Positions 38,991 through 54,095 of a stretch of 64,000 bases of DNA are shown here, piece after piece. The notes beneath the pieces were generated by a model. The model did no database searches and was not told the DNA's origin. It worked only from the letters and a program-made list of their open reading frames with translations. Both the position numbers and the translations under genes were made by a program. Numbering within the stretch: position 1 is the stretch's first letter; every line of letters starts with the position of its first letter. Location of the stretch: positions 28,444 to 92,443 of the forward strand of contig CAINLR010000083.1 in the NCBI GenBank assembly GCA_903850425.1, given 5' to 3'. Source of the DNA: an uncultured Verrucomicrobia subdivision 3 bacterium (GTDB lineage: Bacteria; Verrucomicrobiota; Verrucomicrobiia; Limisphaerales; UBA11358).

Positions 38991-39607
38991 AAAGAAACCC
39001 GCTCGCAGAAGCTTTGTCAGGCATCTGCCCTCCTATTCAACCCGATAGCTGCCCAAAGGTTGAACAACTTACTATGATCGCCGCAACCTTGGTGAGGAAT
39101 ACAAAAGAGGAAACGCCAGATGAATTGGCTGATCGGGCGATGAAACTATGGTTGGCAGCGCGGAAACGAATTTATATTGCAGATAAGGAAGCCGAATTAA
39201 GAAAGCAAGATAACGATTTGCGATTAAGTTCTTTTCGTTGGCCCGCAGAAGCCGACACATTCTTTCCGACCGATGACTATCCAGTAACACGCGACATGTT
39301 TTTGCGGAGAATGCTACCGAAATACAAGAGCCGCACCTGGGACTTGGCGCGGCTTGCAAAATCCTTTGTGCGAGATGTTCTATGCGAAAAGAATGAAGTG
39401 CAGCCATCAAAGGACGAGATTGACGAGCTTTACGGCGGTTGGGCTCCTTGCAAAAATGCGGATCGTGTTGCTGGCGGTCACGGGCATGTCTCCGGCCGTG
39501 CTCACCGAGACCGTTTGGGGTCTATCGCATCCGAAGGCTGGCAGCGACGACGAACCAATCATTCCGCACCGCATCGTTGTGGTAACCACCACCGTCGGGC
39601 GGCGTGA
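38987..39607 (+). CDS. Hypothetical protein coupled to the integrase; C-terminus probably lost (reads into the next gene out of frame)
   Basis: ATGA-type overlap with the integrase stop. The last ~50 codons overlap the CARF gene and are its alternate frame. Confidence 0.45.
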   Translation: MKRNPLAEALSGICPPIQPDSCPKVEQLTMIAATLVRNTKEETPDELADRAMKLWLAARKRIYIADKEAELRKQDNDLRLSSFRWPAEADTFFPTDDYPVTRDMFLRRMLPKYKSRTWDLARLAKSFVRDVLCEKNEVQPSKDEIDELYGGWAPCKNADRVAGGHGHVSGRAHRDRLGSIASEGWQRRRTNHSAPHRCGNHHRRAA

Positions 39608-40619
39608 AATTGAGGGCAGCTTATTCGCGCCACGTCCAGATTTTGCCGGGCTTTCCGCATGGGCTGCGCTGCGGGCGGCACTGGCTGCCGAAGGTCACGA
39701 TCTGAACGGCCGCCTTCGTTTCGGCACCACGCCAGATGACGTGCGCGTGTTCACCACCACGGATCGCGCCACGGGGCGCACGGCCGAGATGGATGACATC
39801 CGCACGCCCGCCGACAACGAAGCAGCGGCCACGTTCATCCTGGAACAGGTGCGCGGCTTGGTTGAGGATCCCGACAAGACGGTCATTGCCTCACTGGCCG
39901 GCGGTCGGAAAACTATGGGGGCATTGCTTTACGCCTGCTTCACCCTGCTCGGCCGGGATACCGACCGGCTCACCCATGTGCTGGTGACCGAACCATTCGA
40001 CCAGTGCCGTGACTTCTTTTTCCCCACGCAGCCGGGCGGAGCGCTGACGCACCGCGATGGTTCCACGCGGCAACCAACCGACGCTGCCATCGTATTGGCA
40101 GATGTTCCGTTCGTGCCGCTGCGTAATCTTTTCCGCCGCGAACTCGGACGTTCGGCCGGCGGCTTTCTGCGACTCATCGAATCCTGTCGTGCCGGCGTGC
40201 GGGAGCGCGTCAGTGATTCCATGCGTTTGACCATAGAGCGGGGGCGACCAGAAATCGAAATCAACGGCTCCCGACTCCGAATGGCCCCCCGCGAACACCT
40301 GTTGCTGCTGTTCTTGGCCAATCGAACCAAGAATGGCGAACCCCCTTTTGCCATGCAGAAAGACGCCCTGGATGCGCTCAATGACTTTCGAGAATCTCTG
40401 CGGGCCGAGGCCCCGACCCGTGATTGGTCGGATTGGCGCCTCACCGACAGCTTGAAATCTCCGATCGCGGACGATCAGGACATCCGCCGCGCCCTCTCCA
40501 GCCTGCGCGAAAAGATTCTTGCGCTCGGCGGTGACGCAGCGGCACTGGCGGCTTGCCTCCCGGAACGCGGGCGGTTCTCTCTGGATCTGCCTGCTCCACT
40601 CCTTTTCCTCAAGCCCTGA
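39456..40619 (+). CDS. CRISPR-associated CARF protein of the NE0113 family with a C-terminal wHTH-like domain
   Basis: RIVLLAVTGMSPAVLTETVWGL, DIRT..DNE, SLAGGRKTMG, DRLTHVLV.EPF are NE0113-family motifs. Start moved to ATG 39456. Confidence 0.85.
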   Translation: MRIVLLAVTGMSPAVLTETVWGLSHPKAGSDDEPIIPHRIVVVTTTVGRREIEGSLFAPRPDFAGLSAWAALRAALAAEGHDLNGRLRFGTTPDDVRVFTTTDRATGRTAEMDDIRTPADNEAAATFILEQVRGLVEDPDKTVIASLAGGRKTMGALLYACFTLLGRDTDRLTHVLVTEPFDQCRDFFFPTQPGGALTHRDGSTRQPTDAAIVLADVPFVPLRNLFRRELGRSAGGFLRLIESCRAGVRERVSDSMRLTIERGRPEIEINGSRLRMAPREHLLLLFLANRTKNGEPPFAMQKDALDALNDFRESLRAEAPTRDWSDWRLTDSLKSPIADDQDIRRALSSLREKILALGGDAAALAACLPERGRFSLDLPAPLLFLKP

Positions 40620-40722
40620 CCCACGTCACTGGACGTCCGAGTTACTACGCGACGAAGCGCCGGCGGCTAGACTGTGCTCGTGAATAGAATACGAGTTACA
40701 AATTGAAAGACGAAAACACGCC

Positions 40723-41754
40723 ATGCCCACCGCCTGCATCAATCAACCCGACTGCCGCGTTCACCTCAAGAGCGAGCGGCTTGAAATTTTCGGCCGTAAC
40801 GAGCAGACGCAGCGCGAGGGCGTGTTGCGTGAGATTCCGTTGCGCGACCTGGAGCGGCTCATCGTCACCGAGTCGGTGCAGATCACGTCCGCCGCGATGG
40901 CCGCCCTGTTGCGGGCCAATATCCCCGTATGTTATCTCGGCTGGAATGGCCGGTTCCTCGGCGGCTTTCTCCCCGCCACCAATCAGCATGGGCTGGCTCG
41001 CCTGCATCAGTATGAGCGCACGCGCGACTCGGCGTTTGGCCTGACCATCGCCGGACGCATCATCGCCGCCAAGCTCTACAACCAACGCCGCATCCTCCAA
41101 CGCCTGCAAGCCAGCCGCCGGAACGAGGAAACTGAGGTGGCCAGGACGCCAATCCAAGGCGCGCTGGACTGGCTCGATGCCTTGTTCGCCCCGTTGAGCC
41201 GTAGCGCTGGGCTAGACGAGTTGCGCGGTTACGAGGGCGCGGCCACCGCCCGGTATTTTCAAGCCTGGGCCAGCTTTCTACCCGCGGACTTCCCTTTCGA
41301 ACGCCGCAGCACGCGCCCGCCGCTAAACCCGGTAAACGCCTGCATCTCTTTTGGAGCCACGTTAATCTACCACGAAACCGTCGCCTTCTGCCACGCTCAC
41401 GGACTGGACCCCGCCCTCGGTTTGCTGCACGCCACCGAAGATGGCCGCTGGTCTCTAGCGCTGGACCTGATGGAACCTTTCCGCCCCGTTCTGGTCGAGG
41501 CGCTGGCGCTGGATCTATTCAGTCACCAAATCCTGAAAGCCGAGTCTTTCGAGGCGCGTGAAGGCGGTGTTTATCTCAGCGAACCCGGCCGCAAAAAGTT
41601 TTTTCTCCAATACGAGCGACGGATGGAACGGCAGTTTCTCTCGGAAGCCGCGGCGCATCGCACCACCTTGCGCCAGCAGTTGGAACAGCAAGCTGTATTG
41701 TTCAAGGCGGCCCTGGAGCAATCAGATCGGTTCCAACCTTTCCTGATGAACTGA
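40723..41754 (+). CDS. cas1: CRISPR-associated endonuclease Cas1
   Basis: LRGYEG.A...YF, R..RPP..PVNA..SFG, GLDP..G.LH, SLALDLMEPFRP. Confidence 0.96.
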   Translation: MPTACINQPDCRVHLKSERLEIFGRNEQTQREGVLREIPLRDLERLIVTESVQITSAAMAALLRANIPVCYLGWNGRFLGGFLPATNQHGLARLHQYERTRDSAFGLTIAGRIIAAKLYNQRRILQRLQASRRNEETEVARTPIQGALDWLDALFAPLSRSAGLDELRGYEGAATARYFQAWASFLPADFPFERRSTRPPLNPVNACISFGATLIYHETVAFCHAHGLDPALGLLHATEDGRWSLALDLMEPFRPVLVEALALDLFSHQILKAESFEAREGGVYLSEPGRKKFFLQYERRMERQFLSEAAAHRTTLRQQLEQQAVLFKAALEQSDRFQPFLMN

Positions 41755-41757
41755 CTT

Positions 41758-42102
41758 ATGGATGATTGGTGGCAACAAGCCTTCCCGCTGGTGCCCTATC
41801 AAAAGAAACCGCCCGGAGAAACCGAGATGTTAATACTGGTGGCCTACGACATTGCCGATCCAAAGCGCCTGGCCCGGGTGGCCAGTATTTGCGAGGACTA
41901 TGGCGTAAGGGTGCAATACAGCATCTTCGAGTGCCGGCTGGACGAGGATCACTTCACTGACTTTTGGCTCAAACTGCTCGAGGAAATCGAGGTGCAGGAG
42001 GATCGGGTGGTAGCCTATAAGATTGACGCACGATCCGCCAAGGAAACGTTGACCGCGGGCACGATGGTCTGCTCAGAGAAAGTCCTGTGCTATCTGGTAT
42101 GA
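41758..42102 (+). CDS. cas2: CRISPR-associated protein Cas2
   Basis: LVAYDIAD.KRL.RV...C..YG.RVQYSIFEC. Confidence 0.96.
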   Translation: MDDWWQQAFPLVPYQKKPPGETEMLILVAYDIADPKRLARVASICEDYGVRVQYSIFECRLDEDHFTDFWLKLLEEIEVQEDRVVAYKIDARSAKETLTAGTMVCSEKVLCYLV

Positions 42103-42321
42103 AGCGCCATTCTTCCAGCTGCCATCGTGTCAGGTCGGGAACCCAGCGACCGCAAAAAGTCGGGTCTGCTGACCTGAAACGAAACTGGCGTATCGACAGA
42201 CGCTTTGGCATTACTTTGGTTGCGTCGGGAAGCGCTGATCCGCGCCATTCGTGGCCGGAGGAGGTGGTCCCGACCTGGAAGTCCCTTAAAGCTTTGACTG
42301 GCAATCAGTTTAGGAGCCAGC
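42103..42321 (+). promoter_or_regulatory. CRISPR leader
   Basis: Non-coding segment between cas2 and the first repeat. Confidence 0.65.
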
Positions 42322-42736
42322 GCAGCCGATGGGCTGAATGCCGAAAGGCAATGGAGACCTTGTCGCTGGCGCTATTGATCGCGCGCAACACCAAAGGCAG
42401 CCGATGGGCTGAATGCCGAAAGGCAATGGAGACACGGTCGCGGAAAGTTTGACGGCAGCTTGCTTGATAGCGCAGCCGATGGGCTGAATGCCGAAAGGCA
42501 ATGGAGACGGTGGGCCTGCAATCGCCATAGTCGAGCCTCGTGGTTGGCAGCCGATGGGCTGAATGCCGAAAGGCAATGGAGACATGCCCATCGTGAGTTC
42601 TGGAGCGAACAAGCGAGCGAACAGGCAGCCGATGGGCTGAATGCCGAAAGGCAATGGAGACAAAGCCAGCCGCTTTCAAATCAACGAAAGCGCGAGCTTG
42701 CAGCCGATGGGCTGAATGCCGAAAGGCAATGGAGAC
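42322..42736 (+). CRISPR. CRISPR array: 6 identical 37-bp repeats, 5 complete spacers (38, 38, 38, 41, 38 bp) and a truncated 6th spacer
   Basis: Repeat GCAGCCGATGGGCTGAATGCCGAAAGGCAATGGAGAC starts at 42322, 42397, 42472, 42547, 42625 and 42700. Orientation inferred from the leader position and the ...ATGGAGAC 3' end. Confidence 0.97.
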
Positions 42737-42767
42737 TCCGGCACAAGCCAGAATCCCGGCACACGGT

Positions 42768-42956
42768 AAGCGCCTTGCCGATGAGCGCGTCCGCGTGGCC
42801 CTGCACCTTAAGCCAGGCGCGCAAATACTTTGGTTCGATGTTGCGGTTGCCTTCGCGCACTTCCCAGTTGCCGAGATAACCGTAGCCCAGCGTCTCGCGG
42901 AACAGCTTCACCACCCGCTGCTGCGTCTTGCGTTCTTTTTGGCCTATATTGTCCAT
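42768..42956 (-). pseudogene. hsdR: Type I restriction subunit HsdR, 5' stub (~63 codons) truncated against the CRISPR array
   Basis: MDNIGQKERKTQQRVVKLFRETLGYGYLGNWEVREGNRNIE..LRAWL..QGHADALIGKAL resembles an HsdR N-terminus; the frame then reads antisense CRISPR spacer/repeat. Confidence 0.8.
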
Positions 42957-42957
42957 A

Positions 42958-43512
42958 TTATCTTTGGGTCGCCATTTTTCCCATGATTGGCGCACAGGCT
43001 TTTGCAAAGTCCAGAAGTTGTTGTGAAACCTCATCAAGAAACTCGTCATCCTTGTGCATTCGCCACAGCACCTTAGGCTCACGCCAATCAGCAGCAGGCG
43101 AGTGCATTTCCACCATCGCCTCCCACCATGCCATTGAACGGGCGGATGGAAAGCGCTCCTGAACAGCGGCCAATAATTCCGGGTAAAACTCTCTTTTCCT
43201 GATCATATCCTCGTCCCGCCACAACCCAAAAACCATCTTCTGGCCATATTTTACGCACTCCAAACTGACGGAATACCCTTCCGGCCAACTTGGTTTCCAC
43301 ACGAAGAATTTACCATATGCATCAGTGAAAAAAGTGTTATAAGGCTCAAGCTGCCACCCCTTTAATTTCTTACCCATTTCCGCACCTAGCCTATCCAGGA
43401 AGGCTGAGACAATTTGTCCTCTAACTATCGGCCACGCCTCGCCGACGGCGCCGGCGATACCTAGGTTGCGCTCATTCTTTAGGATGTAATCGTGAATGGA
43501 TTCACTTTTCAT
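42958..43512 (-). CDS. Hypothetical protein, probable partner or C-terminal domain of the upstream PD-(D/E)XK nuclease
   Basis: Overlaps the upstream gene's stop; aromatic-rich W.P.W and WWE motifs; no catalytic motif seen. Confidence 0.55.
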   Translation of the reverse strand: MKSESIHDYILKNERNLGIAGAVGEAWPIVRGQIVSAFLDRLGAEMGKKLKGWQLEPYNTFFTDAYGKFFVWKPSWPEGYSVSLECVKYGQKMVFGLWRDEDMIRKREFYPELLAAVQERFPSARSMAWWEAMVEMHSPAADWREPKVLWRMHKDDEFLDEVSQQLLDFAKACAPIMGKMATQR

Positions 43513-44332
43513 AATCTTTAGTCTCCGAGCTGTAAATTGGTTCGCGCTGATATTCGGCTTCGATATACGCCATGAGGTCGGACAGGAAAGCGTTAATCCT
43601 TTGCGCAGCGCACTGTTGGCGGCAACTATCTAGCCACTGCCGCAGTTCGTCATGGTAGCTCCAACAGTGCAGCTTGCCACTGGCCGTGAGCGTTGCTATT
43701 TCCGACTGACTGACGGACTCCGGCGGTCGGCCATTCGGTGACAAGTAAATCAATGCCGCCTGGATGGAACCGCTTCGCGTGCAATGGTGAAGGTGTTCCA
43801 AATAATCTTTCACCTGATCCAGTTGTTCGGCGGAATCAATTTTGTTTTCGATGGCCAGCACCGTCCCGGCCTCGACCAAAATGTCCATGCGGCGGCGGCT
43901 ATTGAGGATTCTGTCCGTCGAAGCCTCACGCCGCACGCTGGCGTGCCGGGTTTGCTGCCCGGTCGCCTCCAGACCCAGTTGAATCAACATCAGGCGCAGG
44001 AACAAGTTGCCCTGACCGTGGGTGCCCTTCGGGTTGAGCAAGAAGGCCAGCACGTCAGACAGCCGGTTTTCGTCCGGCTCGATGAAATGAAAGACGTTGA
44101 AGCCGCTGGCCAGCTTTTTGTCGAGGCGGAGCCGTGACTTTTCAGACGCGGCGAGGCTGTGGCCGACGACACGGAAAAAGCTATCCAGTTGAATCCGGTT
44201 GACAGCATCGGCGGGGGCTTGCTCAACTCGATCCAGGCGGGAGCTGACATCGGCGAAGAACTGTTCCAGCGCGGCCCGGTTCACGGTTTGGGGCGGCGAG
44301 CCACGAGTGACTTTGCCGTTGGTGGTCCTCAA
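43502..44332 (-). CDS. PD-(D/E)XK nuclease (PDDEXK_4-like)
   Basis: ENRLSDVLAFLLNP.GTHGQG.LFL..., RRMDILV...IENKI.S.EQ.DQ..DY. Start probably TTG 44332, overlapping the DUF1643 stop. Confidence 0.82.
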   Translation of the reverse strand: MRTTNGKVTRGSPPQTVNRAALEQFFADVSSRLDRVEQAPADAVNRIQLDSFFRVVGHSLAASEKSRLRLDKKLASGFNVFHFIEPDENRLSDVLAFLLNPKGTHGQGNLFLRLMLIQLGLEATGQQTRHASVRREASTDRILNSRRRMDILVEAGTVLAIENKIDSAEQLDQVKDYLEHLHHCTRSGSIQAALIYLSPNGRPPESVSQSEIATLTASGKLHCWSYHDELRQWLDSCRQQCAAQRINAFLSDLMAYIEAEYQREPIYSSETKDYEK

Positions 44333-44883
44333 CGCCGTGCTCCTTTGTAGGGTTTCGGAAGAAGGTCGCCCGGTAGGTAGAGCGGGTGAACTGGCGTGAT
44401 GCCGTCTTTGGCTAATCTCAGGCAGCACAGCCCACCGTGATGATGTAGTGCGTTGGCAACGGCTTGGCCGCGCTCTTTCAGTTGTTTCGGGGGTGCGCCA
44501 TAAGCAAGCACAACGGTTTTGGCTCGACGCGCCATGCTCTCAATAGATTTGTCATTCTCTGGCCCGACGGGGTCATCAACGCCCAGTAGTCTGGTTTTGT
44601 CCGTGGCGCGGTAGGCGTGGACATTCCCGATCAGTTGGCCGCCGTAGCCCCAGGCGCGGGCAAAATTTCCGGTTTTACGCAACGTGGGATCACTGTAATC
44701 CAAACAGGCCACGCTGGGATTCATGAGAATCCACAGGACCAGCGGCTTGCTCTGATCCCAAATCTCGGCCAACTCGTAACGGTATTGGCCGCATTCTGAA
44801 AATCGGGCTGTGACGACGGAATCGGCGGGCCAAGCGGGGCGAGATTTACCACCAGGATCGTGTTTCGCGCTGGATGTGCTCAT
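44329..44883 (-). CDS. DUF1643 family protein
   Basis: A.FS.CG.YRY.L...W, LMNPS.A....DPT.RK...FAR.WGYG.....N..AYRATD, HPLYLP. An upstream in-frame ATG at 44982 adds a degenerate hsdS-tail sequence. Confidence 0.88.
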   Translation of the reverse strand: MSTSSAKHDPGGKSRPAWPADSVVTARFSECGQYRYELAEIWDQSKPLVLWILMNPSVACLDYSDPTLRKTGNFARAWGYGGQLIGNVHAYRATDKTRLLGVDDPVGPENDKSIESMARRAKTVVLAYGAPPKQLKERGQAVANALHHHGGLCCLRLAKDGITPVHPLYLPGDLLPKPYKGARR

Positions 44884-44920
44884 GGATTGGTGCATTGGGG
44901 TCTGGCCGACCGCGTCCATG

Positions 44921-44970
44921 CCCGCCAGCAATTCCTGCATGAAGCCCGGCGTGCGGGTGTGCGGCTTGGC
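44921..44970 (-). repeat. Degenerate 4th copy of the hsdS 3' end
   Basis: Reads RAAKPHTRTPGFMQELLAG versus HsdS RRAKTRALKQGMMQELLTG; includes the identical 15-mer ATGCAGGAATTGCTG. Confidence 0.65.
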
Positions 44971-44978
44971 GGCTCTGC

Positions 44979-46370
44979 TCATACGGTTTTGCTCCGGCTT
45001 GCGATTACCTTCAGCCTGGTTTTCCCCACAACGGTCAGGCGATATTGCTGGAGACGGCTGCTGGGTTTTTCCGGCAAGGTCATTTCAACCAAGCCTCCTT
45101 CGAGGGCCGGACGCAGATAGTTGGCCCGGAATGTTGGACGGTGTTTCAGCCCCAGCCGCTTCTGAATTTCGGACGGGGCCAATGACCGACCACCCACCAC
45201 GATGATCAGCATCTCGACTGGGTCGGCGACTGGGTCGGCGACTGGGTCGGTTGGCGTGCCCTTCGGGACCGCCGGATAGGCGAACTCCACCCACAGCCCG
45301 GCTGGCTCGTAGCGCAGCACGGGCACTGGCGTCCCGGCGGCGCGACACGCCTCCATGATCCGTTCGATCCCGCGTCCCCATGACTCGATCATGCCCGCCC
45401 GGAAGAAGGCGTTGGCCACATCGGGGTTGAACGGGTGCGAAGGATGTTTGCCCTTCAATTTGGCCACGGTCCAGGCAGGCGGCAGCTCCCCCGGATTCCA
45501 CAGCATCAGCTTGTCCGCATAGACGCTGATCTGGATGGGTGCCCCGGCGGAATAATCCTTGTGGATGACGGCGTTGAGCAGCGCCTCGCGCAGCGCGGCC
45601 TCGGGCACCGGGAACGTCTCAAACCGCTGGAGTCCCTGATAGGTCAACCCCGCCTTGAGATACTTCGTCAGCAGCAGGTCCATCGTCTTTTCCACCTGCG
45701 CGAAGAGGTCGCCATGAATCTCGTCGTGATACAGCAAATCCGTGTTCGTGCGGAAGAAGCCAATCTTCACAAACGCCGCCGTGACGAACCGCTCGGGATC
45801 GGGATGAAACAGCAGCACCGCCGCGCGCTTGAGGTGGGCGGCATCCCGCAGCCGCAGCTTTTCAATCAGGCCGGGCGCGGATTCCCGGAGGATCGCGGAA
45901 TCCAGCCGCTGACTCTGCCGCGCCAGTTTGCGGAAGCGGTCAATGGCCGCTTTGGACAAATCCTTGACCGCCACCTGTGGCACCGGCACGCCGTCCCAGT
46001 GCTTGCCCTGTTTGCGCAGGAGAAACTTGTCCAGCGCCGCGCCCTTCAACTCCTGCTTGGTGCTGCCGCTGCGGAGATGATACTCGCCCTTGTAGCTCAC
46101 GGGATACGGATAAGGCTCCACCACGATTTCCAGATATTCCTTGCCGGCTTCCTCGCGCAAGTTCACGCCCACCATGATGCCGAGAATGTCTCGCACCTTG
46201 TTGGGAATATCTTCCATGAGCCGCGCCGAGTCCGGCACGCCGACGACCACGCCCCGGTCGTTCCGGCCAATGTGCAGGACGCCGCCCTCGGCATTGGCAA
46301 AGCCGCAAATCCAGCGCAGATACTCGTCGCGCCACGACTCCTTCCACTCGATCTGTTGGTTCTCTTTCAT
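44979..46370 (-). CDS. Schlafen/AlbA_2 DNA-binding domain + HATPase_c_4 + C-terminal wHTH protein
   Basis: ENQQIEWKESW...ICGFANAEGG.L.IG.ND.G.VVG; ALREALLNAV.HKDY; NP.VANAF...G.IE.WG.G; C-terminal PS...Q.YRLT. Confidence 0.88.
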   Translation of the reverse strand: MKENQQIEWKESWRDEYLRWICGFANAEGGVLHIGRNDRGVVVGVPDSARLMEDIPNKVRDILGIMVGVNLREEAGKEYLEIVVEPYPYPVSYKGEYHLRSGSTKQELKGAALDKFLLRKQGKHWDGVPVPQVAVKDLSKAAIDRFRKLARQSQRLDSAILRESAPGLIEKLRLRDAAHLKRAAVLLFHPDPERFVTAAFVKIGFFRTNTDLLYHDEIHGDLFAQVEKTMDLLLTKYLKAGLTYQGLQRFETFPVPEAALREALLNAVIHKDYSAGAPIQISVYADKLMLWNPGELPPAWTVAKLKGKHPSHPFNPDVANAFFRAGMIESWGRGIERIMEACRAAGTPVPVLRYEPAGLWVEFAYPAVPKGTPTDPVADPVADPVEMLIIVVGGRSLAPSEIQKRLGLKHRPTFRANYLRPALEGGLVEMTLPEKPSSRLQQYRLTVVGKTRLKVIASRSKTV

Positions 46371-46402
46371 ACGAGGCGGGTTCGCCCGGTCAGCAATTCC
46401 TG
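46367..46402 (-). repeat. 3rd copy of the hsdS 3' end (QELLTGRTRLV*)
   Basis: CAGGAATTGCTGACCGGGCGAACCCGCCTCGTATGA; its TGA overlaps the ATG of the AlbA_2 gene. Confidence 0.88.
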
Positions 46403-47113
46403 TTATTTCACCGGCGACCTAAAGGCAAGTGCCACGAGTATCTTCACATTGTTCGATTGCGGCACCGGTAACAATGGCACCACAGCATCAATATATGGGT
46501 TTACGAAACCCGCGAAATGGTCGGCAATCTCGTTTTTGAACAACTCCTCATGGCGATATATCCGTTTTCTCTGCTTCAGATATTCGTGGATTTTTTCATA
46601 CTGGTTCTCGATTTCATAGTCCACGTCATCTTCCAAATCATCCTCGTAGGTTTGATAGACGACGGACCGTGCGTGCGCTATTCCGTTGCGAAAATTAAAA
46701 AGAAGCCTTACACCGTCAATCAACGGTTTGTTATCTAACGCTTCTTCAAGTGGCCTTCCAAGCGTCAAAGTAAACAATTCAGGAAAATCTTTGAATGTCG
46801 CCCTTGAAACCTTTTTAAGAAAAGCGTGGTCTAATCTGCCCTCGAACGTGTCGTGAGGGGCAAATCTACTTCCAATGATAAATGAATTGAGGCACTCCAC
46901 TAGAAAACCTTCAAGACATGCAGCGGAAAGCAGAACTATGGTTGCGTTGATGCCGCGATTTCTTTCATGGAACTCGATCCGTTCGGCCTGAGTTTTTACC
47001 TTGTTGCGATCCTGTTGCAACCATTTGACCATTGAAGGAAAGGTCGTCCAAATGGCTGTCTCGTTATAAGAGGTTACTTTCTTATGTGAGGCGTCTGGCT
47101 TTTTTGCGGTCAT
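46403..47113 (-). CDS. HEPN-like protein (putative RNase toxin/defence effector), AT-rich
   Basis: Helical A.I.L.SAA.LEGF... region and an R-x4-H motif (FRNGIAH). Confidence 0.6.
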   Translation of the reverse strand: MTAKKPDASHKKVTSYNETAIWTTFPSMVKWLQQDRNKVKTQAERIEFHERNRGINATIVLLSAACLEGFLVECLNSFIIGSRFAPHDTFEGRLDHAFLKKVSRATFKDFPELFTLTLGRPLEEALDNKPLIDGVRLLFNFRNGIAHARSVVYQTYEDDLEDDVDYEIENQYEKIHEYLKQRKRIYRHEELFKNEIADHFAGFVNPYIDAVVPLLPVPQSNNVKILVALAFRSPVK

Positions 47114-47116
47114 AAT

Positions 47117-47221
47117 TTAGATCAACCGTGTTCTTCCAGTCAGCAATTCCTGCATCATGCTCTGCTTGAGGGCGCGGGTCTTGGCGCGGCGCTGCTCCAA
47201 CGCCGCCAGCTCCATCCCCAT
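47117..47221 (-). CDS. 34-aa mini-ORF formed by the 2nd copy of the hsdS 3' end (MGMELAALEQRRAKTRALKQSMMQELLTGRTRLI)
   Basis: 47139-47213 is 74/75 identical to 47963-48037 in hsdS. ATG at 47221/47215; stop 3 nt before the HEPN ATG. Confidence 0.6.
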   Translation of the reverse strand: MGMELAALEQRRAKTRALKQSMMQELLTGRTRLI

Positions 47222-47269
47222 ATACAAACTTTGTTTTGTTTTAGAATAAAAGATGTGCATGGCAAGTAA

Positions 47270-47944
47270 TCATAAATGCGAAAGTTTGTTTCGATAGGCG
47301 TCCAAGTTGGGGATTTTTGCTGGAGTATGCTTTTGCAAATTCTCTAACGTGGTCAGCACGAAAAGCACAACAAAATGGGTGTCTAAATCGTTCGTTGTCT
47401 GATTTAGTTCGCCAGTCGTTGCCAGCATGGCTCCGTGGGTAAAATTGCAATATGTCCGATAAACTACTTCATAAAGCGGTAACATCTTCGCTTCTATGGC
47501 TGCATCTCGGGTAGTTACCTTCTTCTCCTGAAACGGGTAATTTGGATCAAAACTTAGAAATAACTGCCTGTAATCGCTAAGAGCTTTAGCTACGTCCGCT
47601 GGCATTGTTGGTTGGAGGCGGGGAAGTTTCTTCTCCTCCATCAATTCCGAGTAAAGTTTGCGGAACAGGAATCCTTGCTTTTGCATCACGGCACAGGCCG
47701 AGAGCAGCGCTTCCAAGATCGGGCGCACTAAAAGCTTCGAAGCCTCGATCATCTTCGATCGTCGCAGGACTATGAAACCGCCAGCCGCCTGGTTTACCGA
47801 GACAGCGGCCCACACCAAATACCTAGCCTCAAGGGTTTTTACGGATTTGATTTCAACAGAATTGATTGCGTCCGAGAGGATGCTTTGAAGCTCGCATAGC
47901 AATTCCAAAAATTTCATTTCCTTCGAGGAGTTTATTGTGCTCAT
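47270..47944 (-). CDS. Hypothetical AT-rich protein, DUF5677-like
   Basis: A..L.R...E and Y..VY...C..THG patterns; ATG overlaps the hsdS stop (ATGA). Confidence 0.5.
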   Translation of the reverse strand: MSTINSSKEMKFLELLCELQSILSDAINSVEIKSVKTLEARYLVWAAVSVNQAAGGFIVLRRSKMIEASKLLVRPILEALLSACAVMQKQGFLFRKLYSELMEEKKLPRLQPTMPADVAKALSDYRQLFLSFDPNYPFQEKKVTTRDAAIEAKMLPLYEVVYRTYCNFTHGAMLATTGELNQTTNDLDTHFVVLFVLTTLENLQKHTPAKIPNLDAYRNKLSHL

Positions 47945-49098
47945 ACCAGTCTGATCCTCCCGGTCAGCAATTCCTGCATCATGCCCTGCTTGAGGGCGCG
48001 GGTCTTGGCGCGGCGCTGCTCCAACGCCGCCAGCTCCGCGTCCATGTCCGTCAGCACCTCGGCGATGGCGGTTTGTTCGGCGATGGTAGCCCAGCTAATC
48101 TTGAGAGGCATTAAATCAACGGCGTGAATATGCGGCTGCGCTCCGCCAGTTTGAGCCTTGTAAATCTTTTCTTGGTTTAGCAGAAGCTGGAAATAAACAA
48201 ACTCGACGGAGTAACCGCTACCCTCGCTGATCGTTGAGCAATCCGAAGCGAAGATGGGTGTATCAAAGAACGCTACATAACCTGCGCTCGCACCAGACGC
48301 ACTCACCGTGATCGTCTTTCCAGTGCGATTCGGCTTATTGTGGAAGTAGGCCGGTTTCATACCGCCAGCAATTACAGGAACAGGCCCGTCAATCGCGTCC
48401 TTTTCTGTGATGAGCTGTCCTTTCGTGATCTTAACCACGTCGCCCAGCCGCTTCGACTCCCACTCGCCGTGGAAGCCGGGGAGGCGGGTTTGGCCGGTGA
48501 GGAGCTGCTGCATGGCGGCCTGTTTGAGGTCGCGCTTCTTGGCGATGAGCTGGTCCAGCGCGCCGAGCAGCGCATCCACATCGCTCAACGCCCCCGCGAT
48601 GGCGCGTTGTTCTGGAAGCGGCGGCAATGGAAGTTCCAGCGCCTTGAAGAAAGGAAGCCCAATCGTCTTTATCGTATTACCGACCCCAATGCGCTCGAAC
48701 TCGGTTTTCTGTGACTGAAGCCAGTAATAGAGGAAGTGATTGCTCAAGCGCGGGCCACATTGCCAAGCTATGAAGTGTTGGCTCACCGCCATCACATCTC
48801 CTGTGATCGCGCTTTTTCCGAGTCTTGAGCCATCCCGTGATAAAACCACGGTCCCGGCTGGATATTCGACCGTCGAAGAATTTGCAACCCCAGCCGGTGT
48901 TATGTGTTCCGAAGTATCTGAAATAAAGAGATTATCAAGATCGTCTGAATCCTTCAAAGAGAGCCACTTGATTTGGCCGTTCCAATAATTAGGATTAGCC
49001 TTATCTGGTGTGTGGCCGCTGCCTCGCTTTGCCACGGAGTCCAGTAAAGCAGCATTCCACGCTGGGTGGGCTGCATCCGCGTTCGCCTTATCCCTCAT
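47941..49098 (-). CDS. hsdS: Type I R-M specificity subunit
   Basis: Two TRDs separated by PLPPLPEQRAIA..LSDVDALL..LDQLIAKKRDLKQAAMQQLLTG; C-terminal EQTAIAEVL.DMD.EL..LE....K...LKQGMMQELLTG. ATGA overlap with hsdM. Confidence 0.95.
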   Translation of the reverse strand: MRDKANADAAHPAWNAALLDSVAKRGSGHTPDKANPNYWNGQIKWLSLKDSDDLDNLFISDTSEHITPAGVANSSTVEYPAGTVVLSRDGSRLGKSAITGDVMAVSQHFIAWQCGPRLSNHFLYYWLQSQKTEFERIGVGNTIKTIGLPFFKALELPLPPLPEQRAIAGALSDVDALLGALDQLIAKKRDLKQAAMQQLLTGQTRLPGFHGEWESKRLGDVVKITKGQLITEKDAIDGPVPVIAGGMKPAYFHNKPNRTGKTITVSASGASAGYVAFFDTPIFASDCSTISEGSGYSVEFVYFQLLLNQEKIYKAQTGGAQPHIHAVDLMPLKISWATIAEQTAIAEVLTDMDAELAALEQRRAKTRALKQGMMQELLTGRIRLV

Positions 49099-51554
49099 CT
49101 CCATAACGCTCCCATTTTCTTGAGGTGTTCGTCCACGCGGGCGGCGAGCGTCGCCGCTTCGCCGGTGAACTGCGGCAGAGGGGTGGCATAGCGTTCGGCC
49201 AGTTGGCGGATGCGCCCGGTAAGCGTCTGCGACACGCGATCCAGTTCGCCCTGCACGGCGGCGGCAATCGTGGCCAGCCATTTATCATCCACCACGAGCG
49301 TCTTGATGTCGTCCTCGGTCAGCTTGCCATACTGCGCCGCGACCTTGAGCAGCAACGCTTCCTGCGCGTCGTTGACCTTCGCGCTGGTCGCGGCTGCTTT
49401 TTCGGCGAGGGCGAGGTAGTCGTTCAGCACCTTGCGCTCGTCCGCCGCGTCGGCGTCGCCCTTGATGTCTTTCAGCCGCGCCGCGACGGATGCCTTGGTG
49501 AGCTTGTCTTTGTCGTTCTTGGCCGCTTCCAGCAAGGCGTCCTCGCCGCCGTGTTCTTCGGCCATCTCTTCCAATGCCTGCTCGCTGGCTGCAACTTCGG
49601 CTTCCAGTTTCTCAATGGCTGCCTGCTCGGCGGCAAAGTAGCGCGCGATGACCAGCGCGGTCGGGATCAACTCGGCTTTATACTTCATTTTGCCGACGGT
49701 GAAATCGGGCTTCTCCTTCGTTTTCTTTTCCTTGTCCTCGATGATGAGCCGGGGCTTGGCGGCTTCGCGCCAGCCGTCGCTGACGATCATGTAAACGTCG
49801 TCCTGCATGGTTTCGGCCCAGTAGTCCATGAGGTGTTGATACACGTCGTAGGCGTCGAGTAGCCGGGCTTTCTCAAACGTGGCCAGCAAATCTTCGGAGA
49901 GTGTTTCGATGAGCGCCTTGGGCTTGCCGCCTTTGGCTATGCCTTTCAAACGCGGGACGTTGGCGGCTTTCCATTTCGCAAACAGTTTCGTGGCGGACTC
50001 GTTGTAAGCGGTGAACTCGGCATGTCCGAAGATGGCGGCTTTGACTTCGCCGATGGGCACGCGGAGCTGGGTGTAGCCGGGGCGGTCGGCTTTTTTGAAC
50101 AGCGTGGCGCGCACGGCGGGGAACACCTGCCAGAAGTTTTCCAACGCATCAATGTCGCGGTTCGGGATGCCGCCGCGCAGGTGGCCGTCAATGTCCTGCA
50201 AATCCTCCGGCTCGGTGCTGTCAATGTAGCGCGGGAGGTTGAGGTTGAAATCGTTCTTCGCGTCGCTGATTTCCGTGAGCGACACCATGCGCGAGTAGCG
50301 GGGGATTTCCGCCAGCCGCGTGAAGGCGTCCACGATCTTGTGAATGTCCTGCGCGCGGAGGCGGTTCTTGTTGCCGTCTTTGATGAACGCCTTGGAGGCA
50401 TCAACCATGAAGATGCCCTTGCGGGCGCTGGCGTTTTCCTTGTCCAGCACGATGATGCACGCCGGGATGCCCGTGCCGTAAAACAGATTCGCCGGCAGGC
50501 CGATGATGGCCTTGATGTAACCGCGCGACACGATCTCGCGGCGGATGGCCGCCTCCGCGCCGCCCCGGAACAGCACGCCATGCGGCAGAATGACCGCACC
50601 TTTGCCGCTGCTTTTGAGAGAGGCGAGGATGTGCAGCAGGAAAGCGTAGTCGCCATTCTTCTGCGGCGGGATGCCAAAGGCGAAGCGTTTGAACAGGTCG
50701 TTGGCCGGGTCGAAGCCGTTGCTCCACGCCTTGGTGGAAAATGGCGGATTGGCGACGGCGAAATCGAACGTCTTGAGCGCGCCGGTCTTGGCGTCCTTGA
50801 AGTGCGGCGTGGACAGCGTGTTGTCCTGCCAGATTTCCGCCGTGGGGCAATCGTGCAGGATCATGTTCATCCGCGCGAGCGCCTTGGTGGCGTTGTCCAT
50901 TTCCTGCCCGTAAAGCGCGAGGTCGTGGCCGGTCGCGCCCTTGGCTTCGTCGTGCGCCTTGAGCAGCAGCGAGCCGGAGCCGCACGTCGGATCGTAAATG
51001 GTCTGGCCCGCGCTGGTCGCGCTGCCGATGCCGATGACGCGCGCCATGATGCGCGAGACTTCCGCCGGGGTGTAAAACTGGCCTTTGCTCTTGCCGGACT
51101 CGGTGGCGAAGTGCCGCATCAGATATTCGTAGGCGTCGCCCAGCAGGTCGTCGCCCTCGGCGCGATTCTGGCCGAAGTCCAATTCCTGAAAGATGCTGAC
51201 CAGTTTGGTCAACCGCGCCACCATGTCCTGACCCTTGCCGAGCTTGTCGGCGTCGTTGAAGTCGGCCACGTCAATCACACCCTTGAGGTCGTTTGCCTCG
51301 GCGAGCCGGGCGATGATCTTGTTGATCTTGTCGCCAATCTCCTTGTCGCCCTTGAGCGCCACCATGTCCGCAAAACTTCCGCCCGTGGGCACGTCGAGCA
51401 GATAACCCTTCTGGCTCGCGGCCTTGTCCGACACATATTTCATGAACAGCAGGACGAGGACGTAATCCTTGTATTGCGAGGCGTCCATGCCGCCGCGCAG
51501 TTCGTCGCACGATTGCCAGAGGGAGGAATACAATTCTGATTTTTTGATGGGCAT
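49095..51554 (-). CDS. hsdM: Type I R-M methyltransferase subunit (long form)
   Basis: LW.SCDELRGGMDASQYKDY, GQFYTP.EVS, DPTCGSGSLL, ANPPF, GVLFRG. Confidence 0.97.
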   Translation of the reverse strand: MPIKKSELYSSLWQSCDELRGGMDASQYKDYVLVLLFMKYVSDKAASQKGYLLDVPTGGSFADMVALKGDKEIGDKINKIIARLAEANDLKGVIDVADFNDADKLGKGQDMVARLTKLVSIFQELDFGQNRAEGDDLLGDAYEYLMRHFATESGKSKGQFYTPAEVSRIMARVIGIGSATSAGQTIYDPTCGSGSLLLKAHDEAKGATGHDLALYGQEMDNATKALARMNMILHDCPTAEIWQDNTLSTPHFKDAKTGALKTFDFAVANPPFSTKAWSNGFDPANDLFKRFAFGIPPQKNGDYAFLLHILASLKSSGKGAVILPHGVLFRGGAEAAIRREIVSRGYIKAIIGLPANLFYGTGIPACIIVLDKENASARKGIFMVDASKAFIKDGNKNRLRAQDIHKIVDAFTRLAEIPRYSRMVSLTEISDAKNDFNLNLPRYIDSTEPEDLQDIDGHLRGGIPNRDIDALENFWQVFPAVRATLFKKADRPGYTQLRVPIGEVKAAIFGHAEFTAYNESATKLFAKWKAANVPRLKGIAKGGKPKALIETLSEDLLATFEKARLLDAYDVYQHLMDYWAETMQDDVYMIVSDGWREAAKPRLIIEDKEKKTKEKPDFTVGKMKYKAELIPTALVIARYFAAEQAAIEKLEAEVAASEQALEEMAEEHGGEDALLEAAKNDKDKLTKASVAARLKDIKGDADAADERKVLNDYLALAEKAAATSAKVNDAQEALLLKVAAQYGKLTEDDIKTLVVDDKWLATIAAAVQGELDRVSQTLTGRIRQLAERYATPLPQFTGEAATLAARVDEHLKKMGALWR

Positions 51555-54021: not shown

Positions 54022-54095
54022 TGGAGCGGGCGAAGGGAATCGAACCCTCGTGTGCAGTTTGGAAAACTGCCGTTCTACCATTGAACTACGCCCGC
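54022..54095 (-). tRNA. tRNA-Gly(TCC)
   Basis: GCGGGCGTAGTTCAATGGTAGAACGGCAGTTTTCCAAACTGCACACGAGGGTTCGATTCCCTTCGCCCGCTCCA: cloverleaf with anticodon TCC and encoded CCA. Confidence 0.97.

What the first reader, a model, noticed from the sequence alone, without database searches (positions are those of the whole stretch)
44921..49098. Integron-like stack of defence cargo genes, each headed by its own copy of the hsdS 3' end
Seen: the hsdS C-terminal coding sequence occurs four times in the same orientation. (1) The true end, 47941-48037 (QELLTGRIRLV*). (2) A copy whose 47139-47213 block is 74/75 identical and ends ...RTRLI* at 47117. (3) A 36-bp copy at 46367-46402 (QELLTGRTRLV*). (4) A degenerate copy at 44921-44970 (RAAK...GFMQELLAG). 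Each sits directly in front of a different cargo gene (DUF5677-like, HEPN, AlbA_2-ATPase, DUF1643). Two keep an ATGA stop/start overlap and one a 3-nt gap. The terminal codons differ between copies, so they look like tails from different hsdS donors rather than one local duplication. Divergence generally increases away from hsdS. Established: type I R-M loci are hotspots for defence genes. Inference: 'hsdS tail + gene' units enter by single crossover at the conserved hsdS C-terminus, stack like cassettes, and inherit expression by translational coupling. I know of no description of this as a system.
Basis: partly seen in the sequence, partly recalled or inferred. Interest (0 to 1): 0.88.

Follow-up and report, generated by a model that had tools for sequence, protein, structure and literature searches.

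The report
Leftover hsdS gene ends between stacked defence genes
Inside a broken restriction-modification operon, three leftover copies of the end of the specificity gene (hsdS) each sit in front of a different imported defence-type gene; related genomes show the same scars, which suggests how extra defence genes get stacked inside these operons.

Summary
The last 36-138 nt of hsdS (the C-terminal conserved helix, CR2) occur four times in direct orientation on the minus strand. The copies are the real end (47941-48078) and three orphans (47117-47213, 46367-46402, 44921-44976). Each orphan lies just upstream of a different cargo gene. The operon is hsdM-hsdS-[six cargo genes]-hsdR', and hsdR is cut to about 63 codons at a CRISPR array.

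The pattern is not unique to this genome. An HMM of CR2 found 44 orphan tails across about 220 related loci from several phyla. All the orphans I mapped lie on the hsdS strand, and the opposite strand gave no hit above noise. The same cargo families follow intact tails elsewhere: AlbA_2 in 10 loci, nearly all with the same ATGA overlap, and HEPN behind an intact "...RTRLI*" hsdS.

Orphans keep their 3' end and lose the 5' end to varying degrees. Four loci show hsdR-5'::hsdS-3' chimeric junctions with different breakpoints.

My best reading is that these are recombination scars. Segments running from CR2 through the cargo were repeatedly joined in front of a resident tail, then reshuffled by homologous recombination in CR2 and trimmed. 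The "integron-like" label is only an analogy: there is no integrase, no attC-like structure and no evidence of circles. Embedded defence genes are known; I found no paper describing this scar architecture.

The parts
49095..51554 (-). hsdM (819 aa), type I methyltransferase of the 810-aa family
   Evidence: Pfam N6_Mtase 3.3e-102 and HsdM_N. PADLOC MTase_I PDLC03027, full length.
47941..49103 (-). hsdS, intact, with two TRDs. The central conserved region CR1 is 48475-48612. The C-terminal conserved region CR2 (tail copy 1) is 47941-48078 and ends ...QELLTGRIRLV*.
   Evidence: Pfam Methylase_S 8e-36, two stretches. Tail HMM 77.0 bits for CR2 and 37.8 for CR1.
47270..47944 (-). Cargo 1: DUF5677-family gene (224 aa). 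Its ATG overlaps the hsdS stop (ATGA). GC is 46%, against 61% for hsdM.
   Evidence: Pfam DUF5677 1.7e-08, above cut-off. GC values.
47214..47269 (-). AT-rich spacer 'S' between the DUF5677 stop and orphan 2. Its origin is unknown. About 45 nt of it are homologous to the spacer in front of the orphan tail of L089, where it follows a HEPN gene instead.
   Evidence: Alignment A1, blastn-short. No significant match to HsdR N-termini.
47117..47213 (-). Orphan tail 2: nearly full CR2 (HMM positions 2-35). The 75-nt 'A' part is 74/75 identical to the real tail. The 22-nt 'B' part is 11/22 identical and ends ...RTRLI*, 3 nt before the HEPN ATG.
46403..47113 (-). Cargo 2: HEPN-like (RiboL-PSP-type) gene, 236 aa, GC 45%.
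   Evidence: Pfam HEPN_RiboL-PSP 3.3e-05, below cut-off. Thirty-one homologues were found. The closest with usable context (74% identity) lies directly behind an intact hsdS in L089/L090.
46367..46402 (-). Orphan tail 3: the last 11 codons plus stop (QELLTGRTRLV*). It abuts the HEPN stop codon, and its stop overlaps the AlbA_2 ATG (ATGA).
   Evidence: 23.3 bits; 30/36.
44979..46370 (-). Cargo 3: AlbA_2 (Schlafen-type) + HATPase_c_4 + Fic-like_C wHTH protein, 463 aa, GC 62%.
   Evidence: Pfam. Homologues follow an hsdS tail in 14 loci, nearly all with the -4 overlap; examples are L027 (intact hsdS, 66% identity) and L095 (full orphan).
44921..44976 (-). Orphan tail 4: degenerate (RAAK...GFMQELLAG). 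It starts at the AlbA_2 stop (GTATGAGCAG...) and has lost its 3' end.
   Evidence: 40/51 nt identity. HMM 8.1 bits, marginal. A DUF1643 homologue lies behind an hsdS-like tail in L008.
44329..44883 (-). Cargo 4: DUF1643 gene. The probable true start is ATG 44883; the longest ORF runs to 44982.
   Evidence: Pfam DUF1643 2.4e-36. Homologue starts seen in L003.
43502..44428 (-). Cargo 5: PD-(D/E)XK nuclease (PDDEXK_4; PADLOC candidate PDC-S26). No tail copy in front of it.
42958..43512 (-). Cargo 6: 184-aa ORF with no family match.
   Evidence: no hits.
42768..42956 (-). hsdR stub: the first ~63 codons (MDNIGQKERKTQQRVVKLFRETLGYGYLGN...), cut off next to the last repeat of the CRISPR array (42305-42760).
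   Evidence: 89% nt identity to the hsdR start of L001. Full hsdR (TIGR00348) matches are found only on other contigs of the genome.

Best explanation
The three extra hsdS ends are recombination scars left by successive additions of defence cargo to one type I R-M operon.

Ground state of this family: the order is hsdM-hsdS-hsdR, and the hsdS stop overlaps the next start (ATGA). The last ~25 nt of hsdS, whose ...T-G-R codons often read GGGAGG, serve as the ribosome-binding region of whatever gene follows.

The variable cargo lies between two conserved flanks. These are the C-terminal conserved helix of hsdS (CR2, about 135 nt) and the first ~70 nt of hsdR.

Step 1 (birth; inferred from junctions seen in other loci). 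A segment from another allele of the operon is joined in front of the resident tail by an illegitimate or microhomology join. The segment starts in or upstream of CR2 and carries its own tail end, its cargo, and sometimes the first codons of hsdR. This leaves hsdS-cargoA-[stub::orphan CR2]-cargoB-hsdR.

Step 2 (inferred). The orphan CR2 is now an internal homology site. Its upstream part ('A') is invariant within the genus. Homologous recombination in 'A' reassorts what lies downstream, because the tail's last codons ('B') travel with the next gene. Slots can therefore be refilled or multiplied.

Step 3 (shown by the size series). Orphans are trimmed from the 5' side and keep their 3' end. The 3' end is the only part still useful, because it gives the stop/RBS context for the next gene.

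In this window the process ran at least three times, with the newest unit nearest hsdS. Cargo came from compositionally different sources (45-46% vs 62% GC). The operon later lost hsdR to a CRISPR-array junction, so the methyltransferase and cargo remain while restriction is dead.
For: - The repeats are real and above chance.
- The stack is covered by separate per-run contigs.
- The same architecture occurs elsewhere. In an unselected sample of genomes carrying this hsdM family, 4 of 57 loci have an orphan, none on the opposite strand and none upstream of hsdM.
- Across all loci examined there are 44 orphans and 145 intact tails. These include stacks of three (L094) and two (L143, L205).
- Where context is available, orphans lie between hsdS and hsdR (L013, L052, L067, L083, L095, L110, L164, L189).
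- Cargo families found behind orphans are found behind intact tails in other loci. AlbA_2: 10 intact and 3 orphan. HEPN, the L001-type gene and a NucS-like gene show the same split.
- Ground state: hsdR follows hsdS directly with an overlap in about 25 loci.
- The A part is 75/75 identical between the window and the same-genus loci L001 and L002, while the B part is 79% and 62% identical.
- Orphan 5' ends are scattered over HMM positions 1-25, while nearly all orphans (window copy 4 excepted) keep the 3' end and stop.
- hsdR'::CR2 chimeras with different breakpoints occur in L104, L143 (two copies), L164 and L186.
- The same spacer-orphan junction occurs in the window (after DUF5677, before HEPN) and in L089 (after HEPN, before a 271-aa gene).
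- An SD-like motif lies 5-18 nt upstream of the overlapping start in 52 of 77 intact tails.
- GC differs between cargo genes.
Against: - No event was observed directly. There is no isogenic empty-site/filled-site pair.
- The one deletion-type joint is not diagnostic.
- The window's own junctions do not contain a recognisable hsdR stub. Spacer S has no significant similarity to HsdR N-termini, and the 7-nt 'ATGAGCA' in front of orphan 4 is too short to judge.
- The 75/75 identity of the A part is not beyond what hsdM shows: runs of 21-28 identical codons at 84% synonymous identity. It therefore does not prove ongoing exchange at CR2.
- That all orphan 5' ends fall inside or at the edge of CR2 could partly reflect how I searched; longer hsdS remnants would be classed differently.
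- Orphans also occur with no type I gene within several kb (L100, L126, L208). These need an extra step, either loss of the operon or movement of the unit.
Confidence: 0.7

Rival explanations
1. Integrase-less cassette system in the strict sense. Recombination between two tail copies excises a circle [tail + cargo]. The circle re-enters any hsdS tail by a single RecA-dependent crossover, so units are gained and lost one at a time like integron cassettes.
For: - Direct repeats of 75-135 nt flank single cargo genes.
- The same orphan junction is found next to different neighbours.
- Contigs joining hsdS directly to orphan 2's B part and HEPN, skipping the 824-nt DUF5677 unit, exist in two runs.
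- Circular intermediates guided by direct repeats are documented at the pneumococcal tvr hsdS locus, partly without its recombinase (PMC6265443).
Against: - The skip contigs contain no k-mer that the full form lacks, because the 52-nt exact repeat is longer than the assembler's word. The true junctions are simply uncovered in those low-depth runs.
- No 'goes back' (circle) joint was reported.
- The model cannot create the first duplicated tail.
- hsdR'::CR2 chimeras with different breakpoints show that at least some orphans arose by illegitimate joins, not by crossover in the tail.
- No recombinase lies in the stack, and the tails show no attC-like fold (z-scores 0.2, 0.5, -0.3).
Confidence: 0.2
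2. Decayed spare hsdS genes: the locus once held several complete or half hsdS genes (a multi-hsdS, phase-variable type I system), and the orphans are what is left after their TRDs were deleted.
For: Multi-hsdS loci with truncated hsdS copies are common in phase-variable systems (papers listed). Some orphans elsewhere are full-length CR2 preceded by the last ~10 codons of a TRD (L143).
Against: - All copies are direct, not inverted.
- No TRD sequence accompanies any orphan in the window.
- No invertase or recombinase lies in the operon.
- Each orphan is tightly joined to a non-hsdS gene whose homologues follow intact hsdS genes elsewhere.
- Some orphans are fused to hsdR starts, which spare hsdS genes would not explain.
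Confidence: 0.04
3. Functional elements: the orphans are kept because they do something themselves. For example, the 47-aa ORF of orphan 2 (47117-47260) could encode a free CR2 helix that modulates assembly of the M2S methyltransferase, or the orphans could be cis-acting RNA signals.
For: The ORF (MHI.YS... + CR2) is open and of the same length in the window and in L089. Orphans almost always keep their stop and its context.
Against: - Eight of the 15 spacer codons differ between the two loci.
- No SD precedes the ATG.
- Other orphans have no start codon at all (orphan 3), or are fused to the preceding ORF (L006).
- There is no excess secondary structure.
- 5' trimming to 11-16 codons is incompatible with a helix-forming peptide.
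Confidence: 0.03
4. Assembly artefact: the metagenome assembler threaded unrelated contigs together through the shared 52-75-nt repeat.
For: The genome is a 197-contig metagenome bin. Depth is only 3-9x in the runs that hold it. A more abundant organism in run X1 shares 45 nt of the A part.
Against: - Single contigs from separate runs cross each junction with 0 mismatches: X1 46790-48000, X2 44436-46503, X4 46346-47461.
- Orphans 3 and 4 are too short or too diverged to mislead an assembler.
- The same architecture appears in many unrelated assemblies, including complete chromosomes in the genome sample.
Confidence: 0.03

Closest known systems
Genetic embedding of defence genes inside type I R-M operons. 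Examples are PrrC in EcoprrI, TgvAB in V. cholerae VPI-2, DarTG2 in EPEC, and 'guilt-by-embedding' (Payne et al. 2024).
   Same: Defence-type genes lie between hsdS and hsdR, on the same strand as the operon (PMC11411939, PMC12255303, 10.1101/2024.01.29.577857). The cargo families seen here are typical of such sites: AlbA_2, HEPN, PDDEXK, Zeta toxin, GmrSD, SIR2.
   Different: Those papers describe what is embedded, not how. The Payne preprint does not contain the words 'recombination', 'hsdS' or 'remnant'. The RptR paper only calls the site 'a potential recombination hotspot'. Orphan hsdS tails marking each cargo boundary are not mentioned.
Insertion with long target duplication (Nobusato et al. 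2000, as cited in Furuta, Abe & Kobayashi 2010, PMC2853133).
   Same: Genes are inserted without any mobility gene and are flanked by direct repeats of >30 to ~400 bp that correspond to a single target sequence in relatives. In that paper's H. influenzae examples the repeat overlaps the 3' end of a gene.
   Different: There the inserted unit is a whole R-M system at scattered chromosomal targets. Here the target is always the same conserved gene end inside an R-M operon. The inserts are non-R-M cargo. Events are nested into stacks, and the duplicated part carries the expression context of the next gene.
Pneumococcal tvr locus (SpnIV): excision-reintegration shuffling of hsdS segments (Kwun et al. 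2018, PMC6265443).
   Same: Direct repeats within and at the end of hsdS fragments guide excision of circles and reintegration. Toxin-antitoxin homologues lie within the locus. Some excision persists without the dedicated recombinase and without recA.
   Different: The tvr locus shuffles TRD-bearing hsdS pieces to change specificity, and it has its own tyrosine recombinase (TvrR). Here no TRDs move, no recombinase lies in the stack, and circles are not shown.
Integron gene cassettes
   Same: A row of promoterless, same-strand genes sits behind one anchor. Each gene is delimited by a recurring sequence, with the newest nearest the anchor.
   Different: There is no IntI, no attI, no attC hairpins and no Pc promoter. 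The recurring sequence is coding DNA of the anchor gene, and recombination would be homologous or illegitimate rather than site-specific.
TRD reassortment by recombination in the conserved regions of hsdS. I know this for lactococcal plasmid hsdS genes and for H. pylori; see also the Xylella preprint 10.1101/2022.09.01.506293 listed.
   Same: The same conserved helices (CR1, CR2) act as crossover sites. Run X4 holds a relative whose sequence diverges from the window exactly at CR1 and CR2 (loose ends at 48458 and 48015).
   Different: Known exchange changes the specificity of hsdS. Here the crossover or junction site serves to change or add what lies downstream of hsdS.
Evolutionary unit spanning '3' end of one ORF + intergenic + 5' end of the next' (Tsuru & Kobayashi 2008, PMC2568036), and orphan toxin/immunity arrays behind rhs/cdiA genes (the latter from my own knowledge).
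   Same: The inherited unit is not the ORF but the junction of two ORFs (abstract shown). In rhs/cdi arrays, displaced gene ends with their partner genes pile up downstream of the full-length gene.
   Different: The gene families differ. In rhs/cdi arrays the displaced piece is itself the functional toxin tip, whereas here the displaced hsdS end has no function as protein.

Membership tests
Type I restriction-modification system | HsdM methyltransferase subunit | tested here: met
   N6_Mtase 3.3e-102, HsdM_N; PADLOC MTase_I, full length.
Type I restriction-modification system | HsdS with two TRDs and two conserved helices | tested here: met
   Methylase_S, two stretches. CR1 and CR2 detected.
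Type I restriction-modification system | HsdR restriction/translocase subunit | tested here: not met
   Only the first ~63 codons remain (42956-42768), ending at the CRISPR array. Full hsdR genes are on other contigs only. The locus is at best a methyltransferase with cargo.
Integron | IntI-type integrase adjacent to the cassette row (attI) | tested here: not met
   The only integrase (37854-38990, + strand) lies at the far end of the tRNA-Gly island, beyond cas genes and a CRISPR array. No recombinase lies between hsdM and the hsdR stub.
Integron | attC sites: imperfect inverted repeats that fold as single-strand hairpins at each cassette end | tested here: not met
   Tails fold no better than shuffles on either strand (z = 0.20, 0.52, -0.30). 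They are direct repeats of coding sequence.
Insertion with long target duplication | Insert flanked by direct repeats >30 bp, with no mobility gene inside | tested here: met
   DUF5677 is flanked by 97-138-nt tail copies. HEPN is flanked by orphans 2 and 3, and AlbA_2 by orphans 3 and 4. No transposase or integrase lies in the stack.
Insertion with long target duplication | A relative with the empty site carries the repeat once | tested here: inconclusive
   L089/L090 have hsdS(...RTRLI*)-HEPN with no DUF5677 unit. This is the arrangement expected before or without that insertion. However, their HEPN is only 74% identical, so they are not an isogenic empty site.
tvr-like excision-reintegration locus | Dedicated recombinase within the hsdS repeat region | tested here: not met
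   No such gene lies between hsdM and the hsdR stub.
tvr-like excision-reintegration locus | Circular intermediates joining repeat n to repeat n+1 | not testable with these tools
   Only Logan contigs are available for the runs, not raw reads. No 'goes back' joint was reported, and the 'skips 824' joint is not diagnostic.
Phase-variable multi-hsdS (inverton) system | Inverted hsdS repeats with TRDs, plus an invertase | tested here: not met
   All copies are direct. The orphans carry no TRD. There is no invertase.

The most novel reading that the evidence does not exclude
The conserved 3' end of hsdS is a general, recombinase-independent docking site for defence genes, working together with the 5' end of hsdR. 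It would operate across bacteria and archaea. Any gene lying between these two flanks in one genome could be copied into, or stacked within, any operon of the same family. It would arrive with a ready-made ribosome-binding context. The orphan tails would be the molecular fossils of that traffic, and also markers for ex-type-I cargo that now sits elsewhere. This would amount to an 'integron without an integrase' that helps to build defence islands.
Probability: 0.25. Interest if true: 0.8.

Novelty: new variant of a known kind. Interest (0 to 1): 0.64.

Why it matters
Embedding of defence genes inside R-M, BREX and similar operons is now used to discover new antiviral systems ('guilt-by-embedding'). 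How the genes get there is not explained in the papers I could read.

Orphan hsdS tails, and the hsdR-start::hsdS-end chimeras seen in relatives, are physical junctions that record the events. They offer four things:
- Exact cargo boundaries.
- A relative order of arrival.
- A way to recognise former type I cargo that now sits outside any R-M operon.
- A concrete, testable mechanism: recombination at two short conserved flanks, with selection keeping the tail's 3' end as the expression adaptor for the next gene.

The window is also an example of an operon whose restriction gene is dead while the methyltransferase and six cargo genes remain open reading frames.

Tried and rejected
1. Is spacer S a decayed hsdR start? 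An HMM of 17 HsdR N-termini scores it -0.4 bits, and shuffled peptides reach up to 6.1. Not supported; S stays unexplained.

2. Is the 75/75 identity of the tail's A part between species evidence for homogenisation at CR2? hsdM of the same pair has 84% identical codons at identical residues, and runs of 21-28 identical codons. The identity is therefore ordinary and I dropped it as evidence.

3. Is the 'skips 824' joint in runs X2 and X3 a DUF5677-less variant? The 52-nt exact repeat exceeds the assembler's word length. The skip path has no unique words, and the true junctions are uncovered in those runs. The joint is not diagnostic.

4. Do the tails have attC-like structure? No.

5. Does the genome hold other tail copies? 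Only this locus matches, with three hits.

6. Does PADLOC recognise the cargo? Only PDDEXK_4 (PDC-S26) and weak AlbA_2 matches to pAgo-associated models. DUF5677, HEPN, DUF1643 and the 184-aa ORF give nothing.

7. HEPN homologues at 60-68% identity (L091-L093) are not in type I loci. The link to hsdS is therefore not obligatory for this family.

8. Literature searches for truncated, partial or remnant hsdS returned only phase-variable systems and pseudogenes, with nothing about cargo boundaries.

Full report
**What is there**

The finding lies on the minus strand of a ~16-kb island. The island is bounded by tRNA-Gly (54022-54095) and a tyrosine integrase (37854-38990). In the direction of transcription the order is as follows:
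- an alpha/beta hydrolase and a PLD-like gene
- hsdM (49095-51554)
- hsdS (47941-49103)
- DUF5677 (47270-47944)
- a HEPN-like gene (46403-47113)
- an AlbA_2/HATPase_c_4/Fic-like_C gene (44979-46370)
- DUF1643 (44329-44883)
- a PDDEXK_4 nuclease (43502-44428)
- a 184-aa ORF (42958-43512)

Directly after the 184-aa ORF come the first ~63 codons of hsdR (42956-42768, MDNIGQKERKTQQRVVKLFRETLGYGYLGN...). They are 89% identical in DNA to the hsdR start of a same-genus locus. They break off next to the last repeat of a six-repeat CRISPR array. Full hsdR genes exist only on other contigs. The unit is therefore one type I operon with six embedded genes and a dead restriction subunit.

My counts are:
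- 74/75 for 47139-47213 against the true tail
- 11/22 for the last 22 nt
- 30/36 for the 36-nt copy
- 40/51 for the degenerate copy

A 35-position HMM of the hsdS C-terminal conserved helix (CR2), built from 63 related genes, gives 77.0, 68.7, 23.3 and 8.1 bits for copies 1-4. The best hit on the opposite strand of 88 loci is 7.8 bits. The stop/start geometry is as described: two ATGA overlaps and one 3-nt gap. The central conserved helix of hsdS (48475-48612) is a further, more distant relative of the same repeat.

Contigs assembled separately from different lake-water metagenome runs of the same study cross each junction without a mismatch: X1 46790-48000, X2 44436-46503, X4 46346-47461. The stack is therefore not the product of one assembly.

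**The pattern is general**

I fetched 80 loci from species-representative genomes using HsdM as the query; they come from many phyla.
- Of 57 loci with an intact hsdS and at least 2 kb downstream, four carry one orphan tail: Lentisphaerae L013, Poribacteria L052 and L083, and Methylobacter L067.
- None of the 57 has an orphan upstream of hsdM or on the other strand.

A pattern search in 401 genomes of the same order found further cases:
- L094 is a contig with three full-length orphans, each followed by different cargo.
- L095 has the order hsdS - IS200/RAYT-like gene - orphan - AlbA_2 - hsdR.
- L096 has an orphan in front of a zeta-toxin pair.

A metagenome scan with a 20-mer of the tail added more than ten further orphan-bearing contigs. 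Across all loci I counted 145 intact tails and 44 orphans. Where context is available, orphans lie between hsdS and hsdR.

**'Tail + next gene' behaves as a unit**

I clustered the first ORF after each tail.
- The commonest is hsdR itself, in about 25 loci, mostly with a -4 overlap. This is the ground state, and the tail's end is the natural ribosome-binding context for whatever follows. An SD-like motif is present in 52 of 77 overlapping cases.
- AlbA_2 homologues follow a tail in 14 loci: 10 behind an intact hsdS, including a Pseudomonas bin at 66% identity, and 3 behind orphans. Nearly all have the same -4 overlap as in the window.
- The closest HEPN homologue with usable context (74% identity, L089/L090) follows an intact hsdS that ends ...RTRLI*. 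That is the ending of the window's orphan 2.
- DUF1643 follows an hsdS-like tail in L008, and sits second in the cargo row of a same-genus locus.
- A 73-aa + Zeta_toxin pair follows an orphan in 6 of 7 loci.
- Same-genus loci carry quite different cargo between the same two flanks.
- Within the window, cargo GC ranges from 45% to 62%.

**Anatomy of the tails**

The upstream 75 nt ('A') of CR2 is identical in the window, L001 and L002. The last 24 nt ('B') are 79% and 62% identical. B therefore varies with the downstream gene, and A is a family constant.

It also means the identity is not evidence for gene conversion. hsdM of the same pair shows comparable runs of identical codons.

Orphans keep their 3' end and stop; window copy 4 is an exception. 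They start at scattered HMM positions, from 1 to 25. The window's orphan 3 looks like an L089-type 'HEPN - spacer - full CR2' that has lost the spacer and 72 nt. The series fits progressive 5' trimming, with retention of the only part that still matters for the next gene.

**How orphans are born**

In L104, L143 (twice), L164 and L186 the orphan is immediately preceded by the first 22-27 codons of hsdR. The breakpoints differ on both sides. These are illegitimate joins between the 5' end of hsdR of one operon copy and the 3' end of hsdS of another. In other words, a whole inter-flank segment [CR2 - cargo - hsdR start] was placed in front of a resident tail.

The window's own junctions are less informative.
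- Orphan 2 is preceded by a 56-nt AT-rich spacer. About 45 nt of that spacer, and its junction with CR2, are homologous to the spacer in L089. There it follows HEPN instead of DUF5677 and precedes a 271-aa gene instead of HEPN. The same orphan unit therefore has different neighbours on both sides in two loci. This argues for later reshuffling by homologous recombination around it.
- The spacer itself is not recognisably hsdR-derived.
- Orphan 4 begins at the AlbA_2 stop in the string GTATGAGCAG. That resembles the canonical hsdS-stop/hsdR-start junction, but it is too short to call.

**What is not shown**

- I found no circle-type joint.
- Two runs contain ~355-nt contigs that join hsdS to orphan 2's B part and HEPN, skipping the 824-nt DUF5677 unit. 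Because the exact repeat (52 nt) is longer than the assembler's word, this path has no unique word. In those low-depth runs the true junctions are simply uncovered. The joint is compatible with a real deletion variant and with a graph artefact alike.
- The tails have no attC-like fold.
- No recombinase lies in the stack.
- The island integrase sits beyond the cas genes and belongs to the tRNA-Gly island.

**Comparison with the literature**

- Embedded defence genes in type I operons are well documented: TgvAB, DarTG2 and the 'guilt-by-embedding' survey. The survey does not discuss mechanism. One paper calls the hsdS-hsdR site a potential recombination hotspot.
- The nearest mechanistic precedents are two. 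One is 'insertion with long target duplication' of R-M genes (PMC2853133). The other is the repeat-guided excision-reintegration of hsdS segments at the pneumococcal tvr locus (PMC6265443).
- My searches for truncated or remnant hsdS returned only phase-variation papers.
- Earlier notes of this scan report the same scars in other genomes, including hsdR-5'/hsdS-3' chimeras. I treat them as leads. My chimeras were found before I read them.

**Verdict**

The tails are scars of different hsdS alleles that delimit stacked cargo, and 'tail + gene' units recur. Entry by single crossover of circles is unproven, and it is not the only or even the best-supported route. I rate this a new variant of known kinds (embedding, long-target-duplication insertion), of moderate to high interest because it makes the embedding mechanism testable.

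Noticed in passing
window 42768-42956 (-) and 42305-42760: hsdR is cut to ~63 codons exactly where the trailer end of a six-repeat CRISPR array begins. The type I system here can methylate but not restrict. Run X3 has a contig that diverges from the window inside the array (loose end at 42700), so the array content varies in the population.
   Followed up: partly
window 39354-42760 (+): A CARF (Cas_NE0113) gene, cas1, cas2 and a CRISPR array lie in the island, but no effector cas genes do.
   Followed up: no
window 44883-44982 (-): The longest DUF1643 ORF (217 aa) starts inside the AlbA_2 stop (ATGA) and reads through orphan tail 4. Homologues start at the equivalent of ATG 44883, so the first 33 codons are probably not part of the protein.
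   Followed up: partly
L096 4981-6285; L107 2847-4200: The same scar principle appears at the hsdM/hsdS boundary. Short copies of the hsdM 3' end plus the hsdS 5' start (...ARVDEHLKKMGAAWK*MEVKPGYKQTEV) are repeated two or three times. They flank a RhuM-like gene, an IS200/RAYT-like gene and REP-like sequence.
   Followed up: partly
L004 5706-6224; L095 894-1412; L096 5200-5646: An IS200/RAYT-like gene (MSSTYLSLHYHLVFGTK...) with GC-rich palindromic repeats (reading ...AATPAGV... in one frame) sits directly behind hsdS in three loci of the same order. In L095 it is the only thing between the intact tail and a full-length orphan. My identification rests on the sequence motif only.
   Followed up: no
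L094 2375-3345; L096, L099, L100, L104, L110, L185: A 73-aa gene followed by a Zeta_toxin-family P-loop gene is preceded by an orphan hsdS tail in six of seven loci, about 39 nt upstream. In L099 and L110 it is the last unit before hsdR.
   Followed up: partly
L100 7003-7071; L126 8905-9003; L208 8973-9041; L007 3298-3390: These orphan tails, each with a following gene, have no hsdM, hsdS or hsdR match within the 3-9 kb of flank that I hold. They are either cargo that left a type I operon or operons that decayed completely.
   Followed up: partly
window 47214-47262 (-) and L089 2612-2664: The AT-rich spacer in front of orphan 2 keeps the same length and an open frame (MHIFYSKTKQSLYMG / MHICYSQIQQRLIVS) in two loci, although 8 of 15 codons differ. 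Its origin is unknown.
   Followed up: partly
window 47971-48015, run X1: A 1180-nt contig at depth 22, about three times the depth of this genome, shares 45 nt of the tail's A part and then diverges upstream. A more abundant organism in the same lake carries an hsdS of the same family with another TRD.
   Followed up: no
window 44979-45010 (-) vs L095, L164: The window's AlbA_2 protein ends ...SRSKTV* on the string GTATGA, like an hsdS tail. Its homologues in L095 and L164 end ...WEVLP* and overlap an hsdR start. The C-terminus of the window's gene may itself be chimeric.
   Followed up: no
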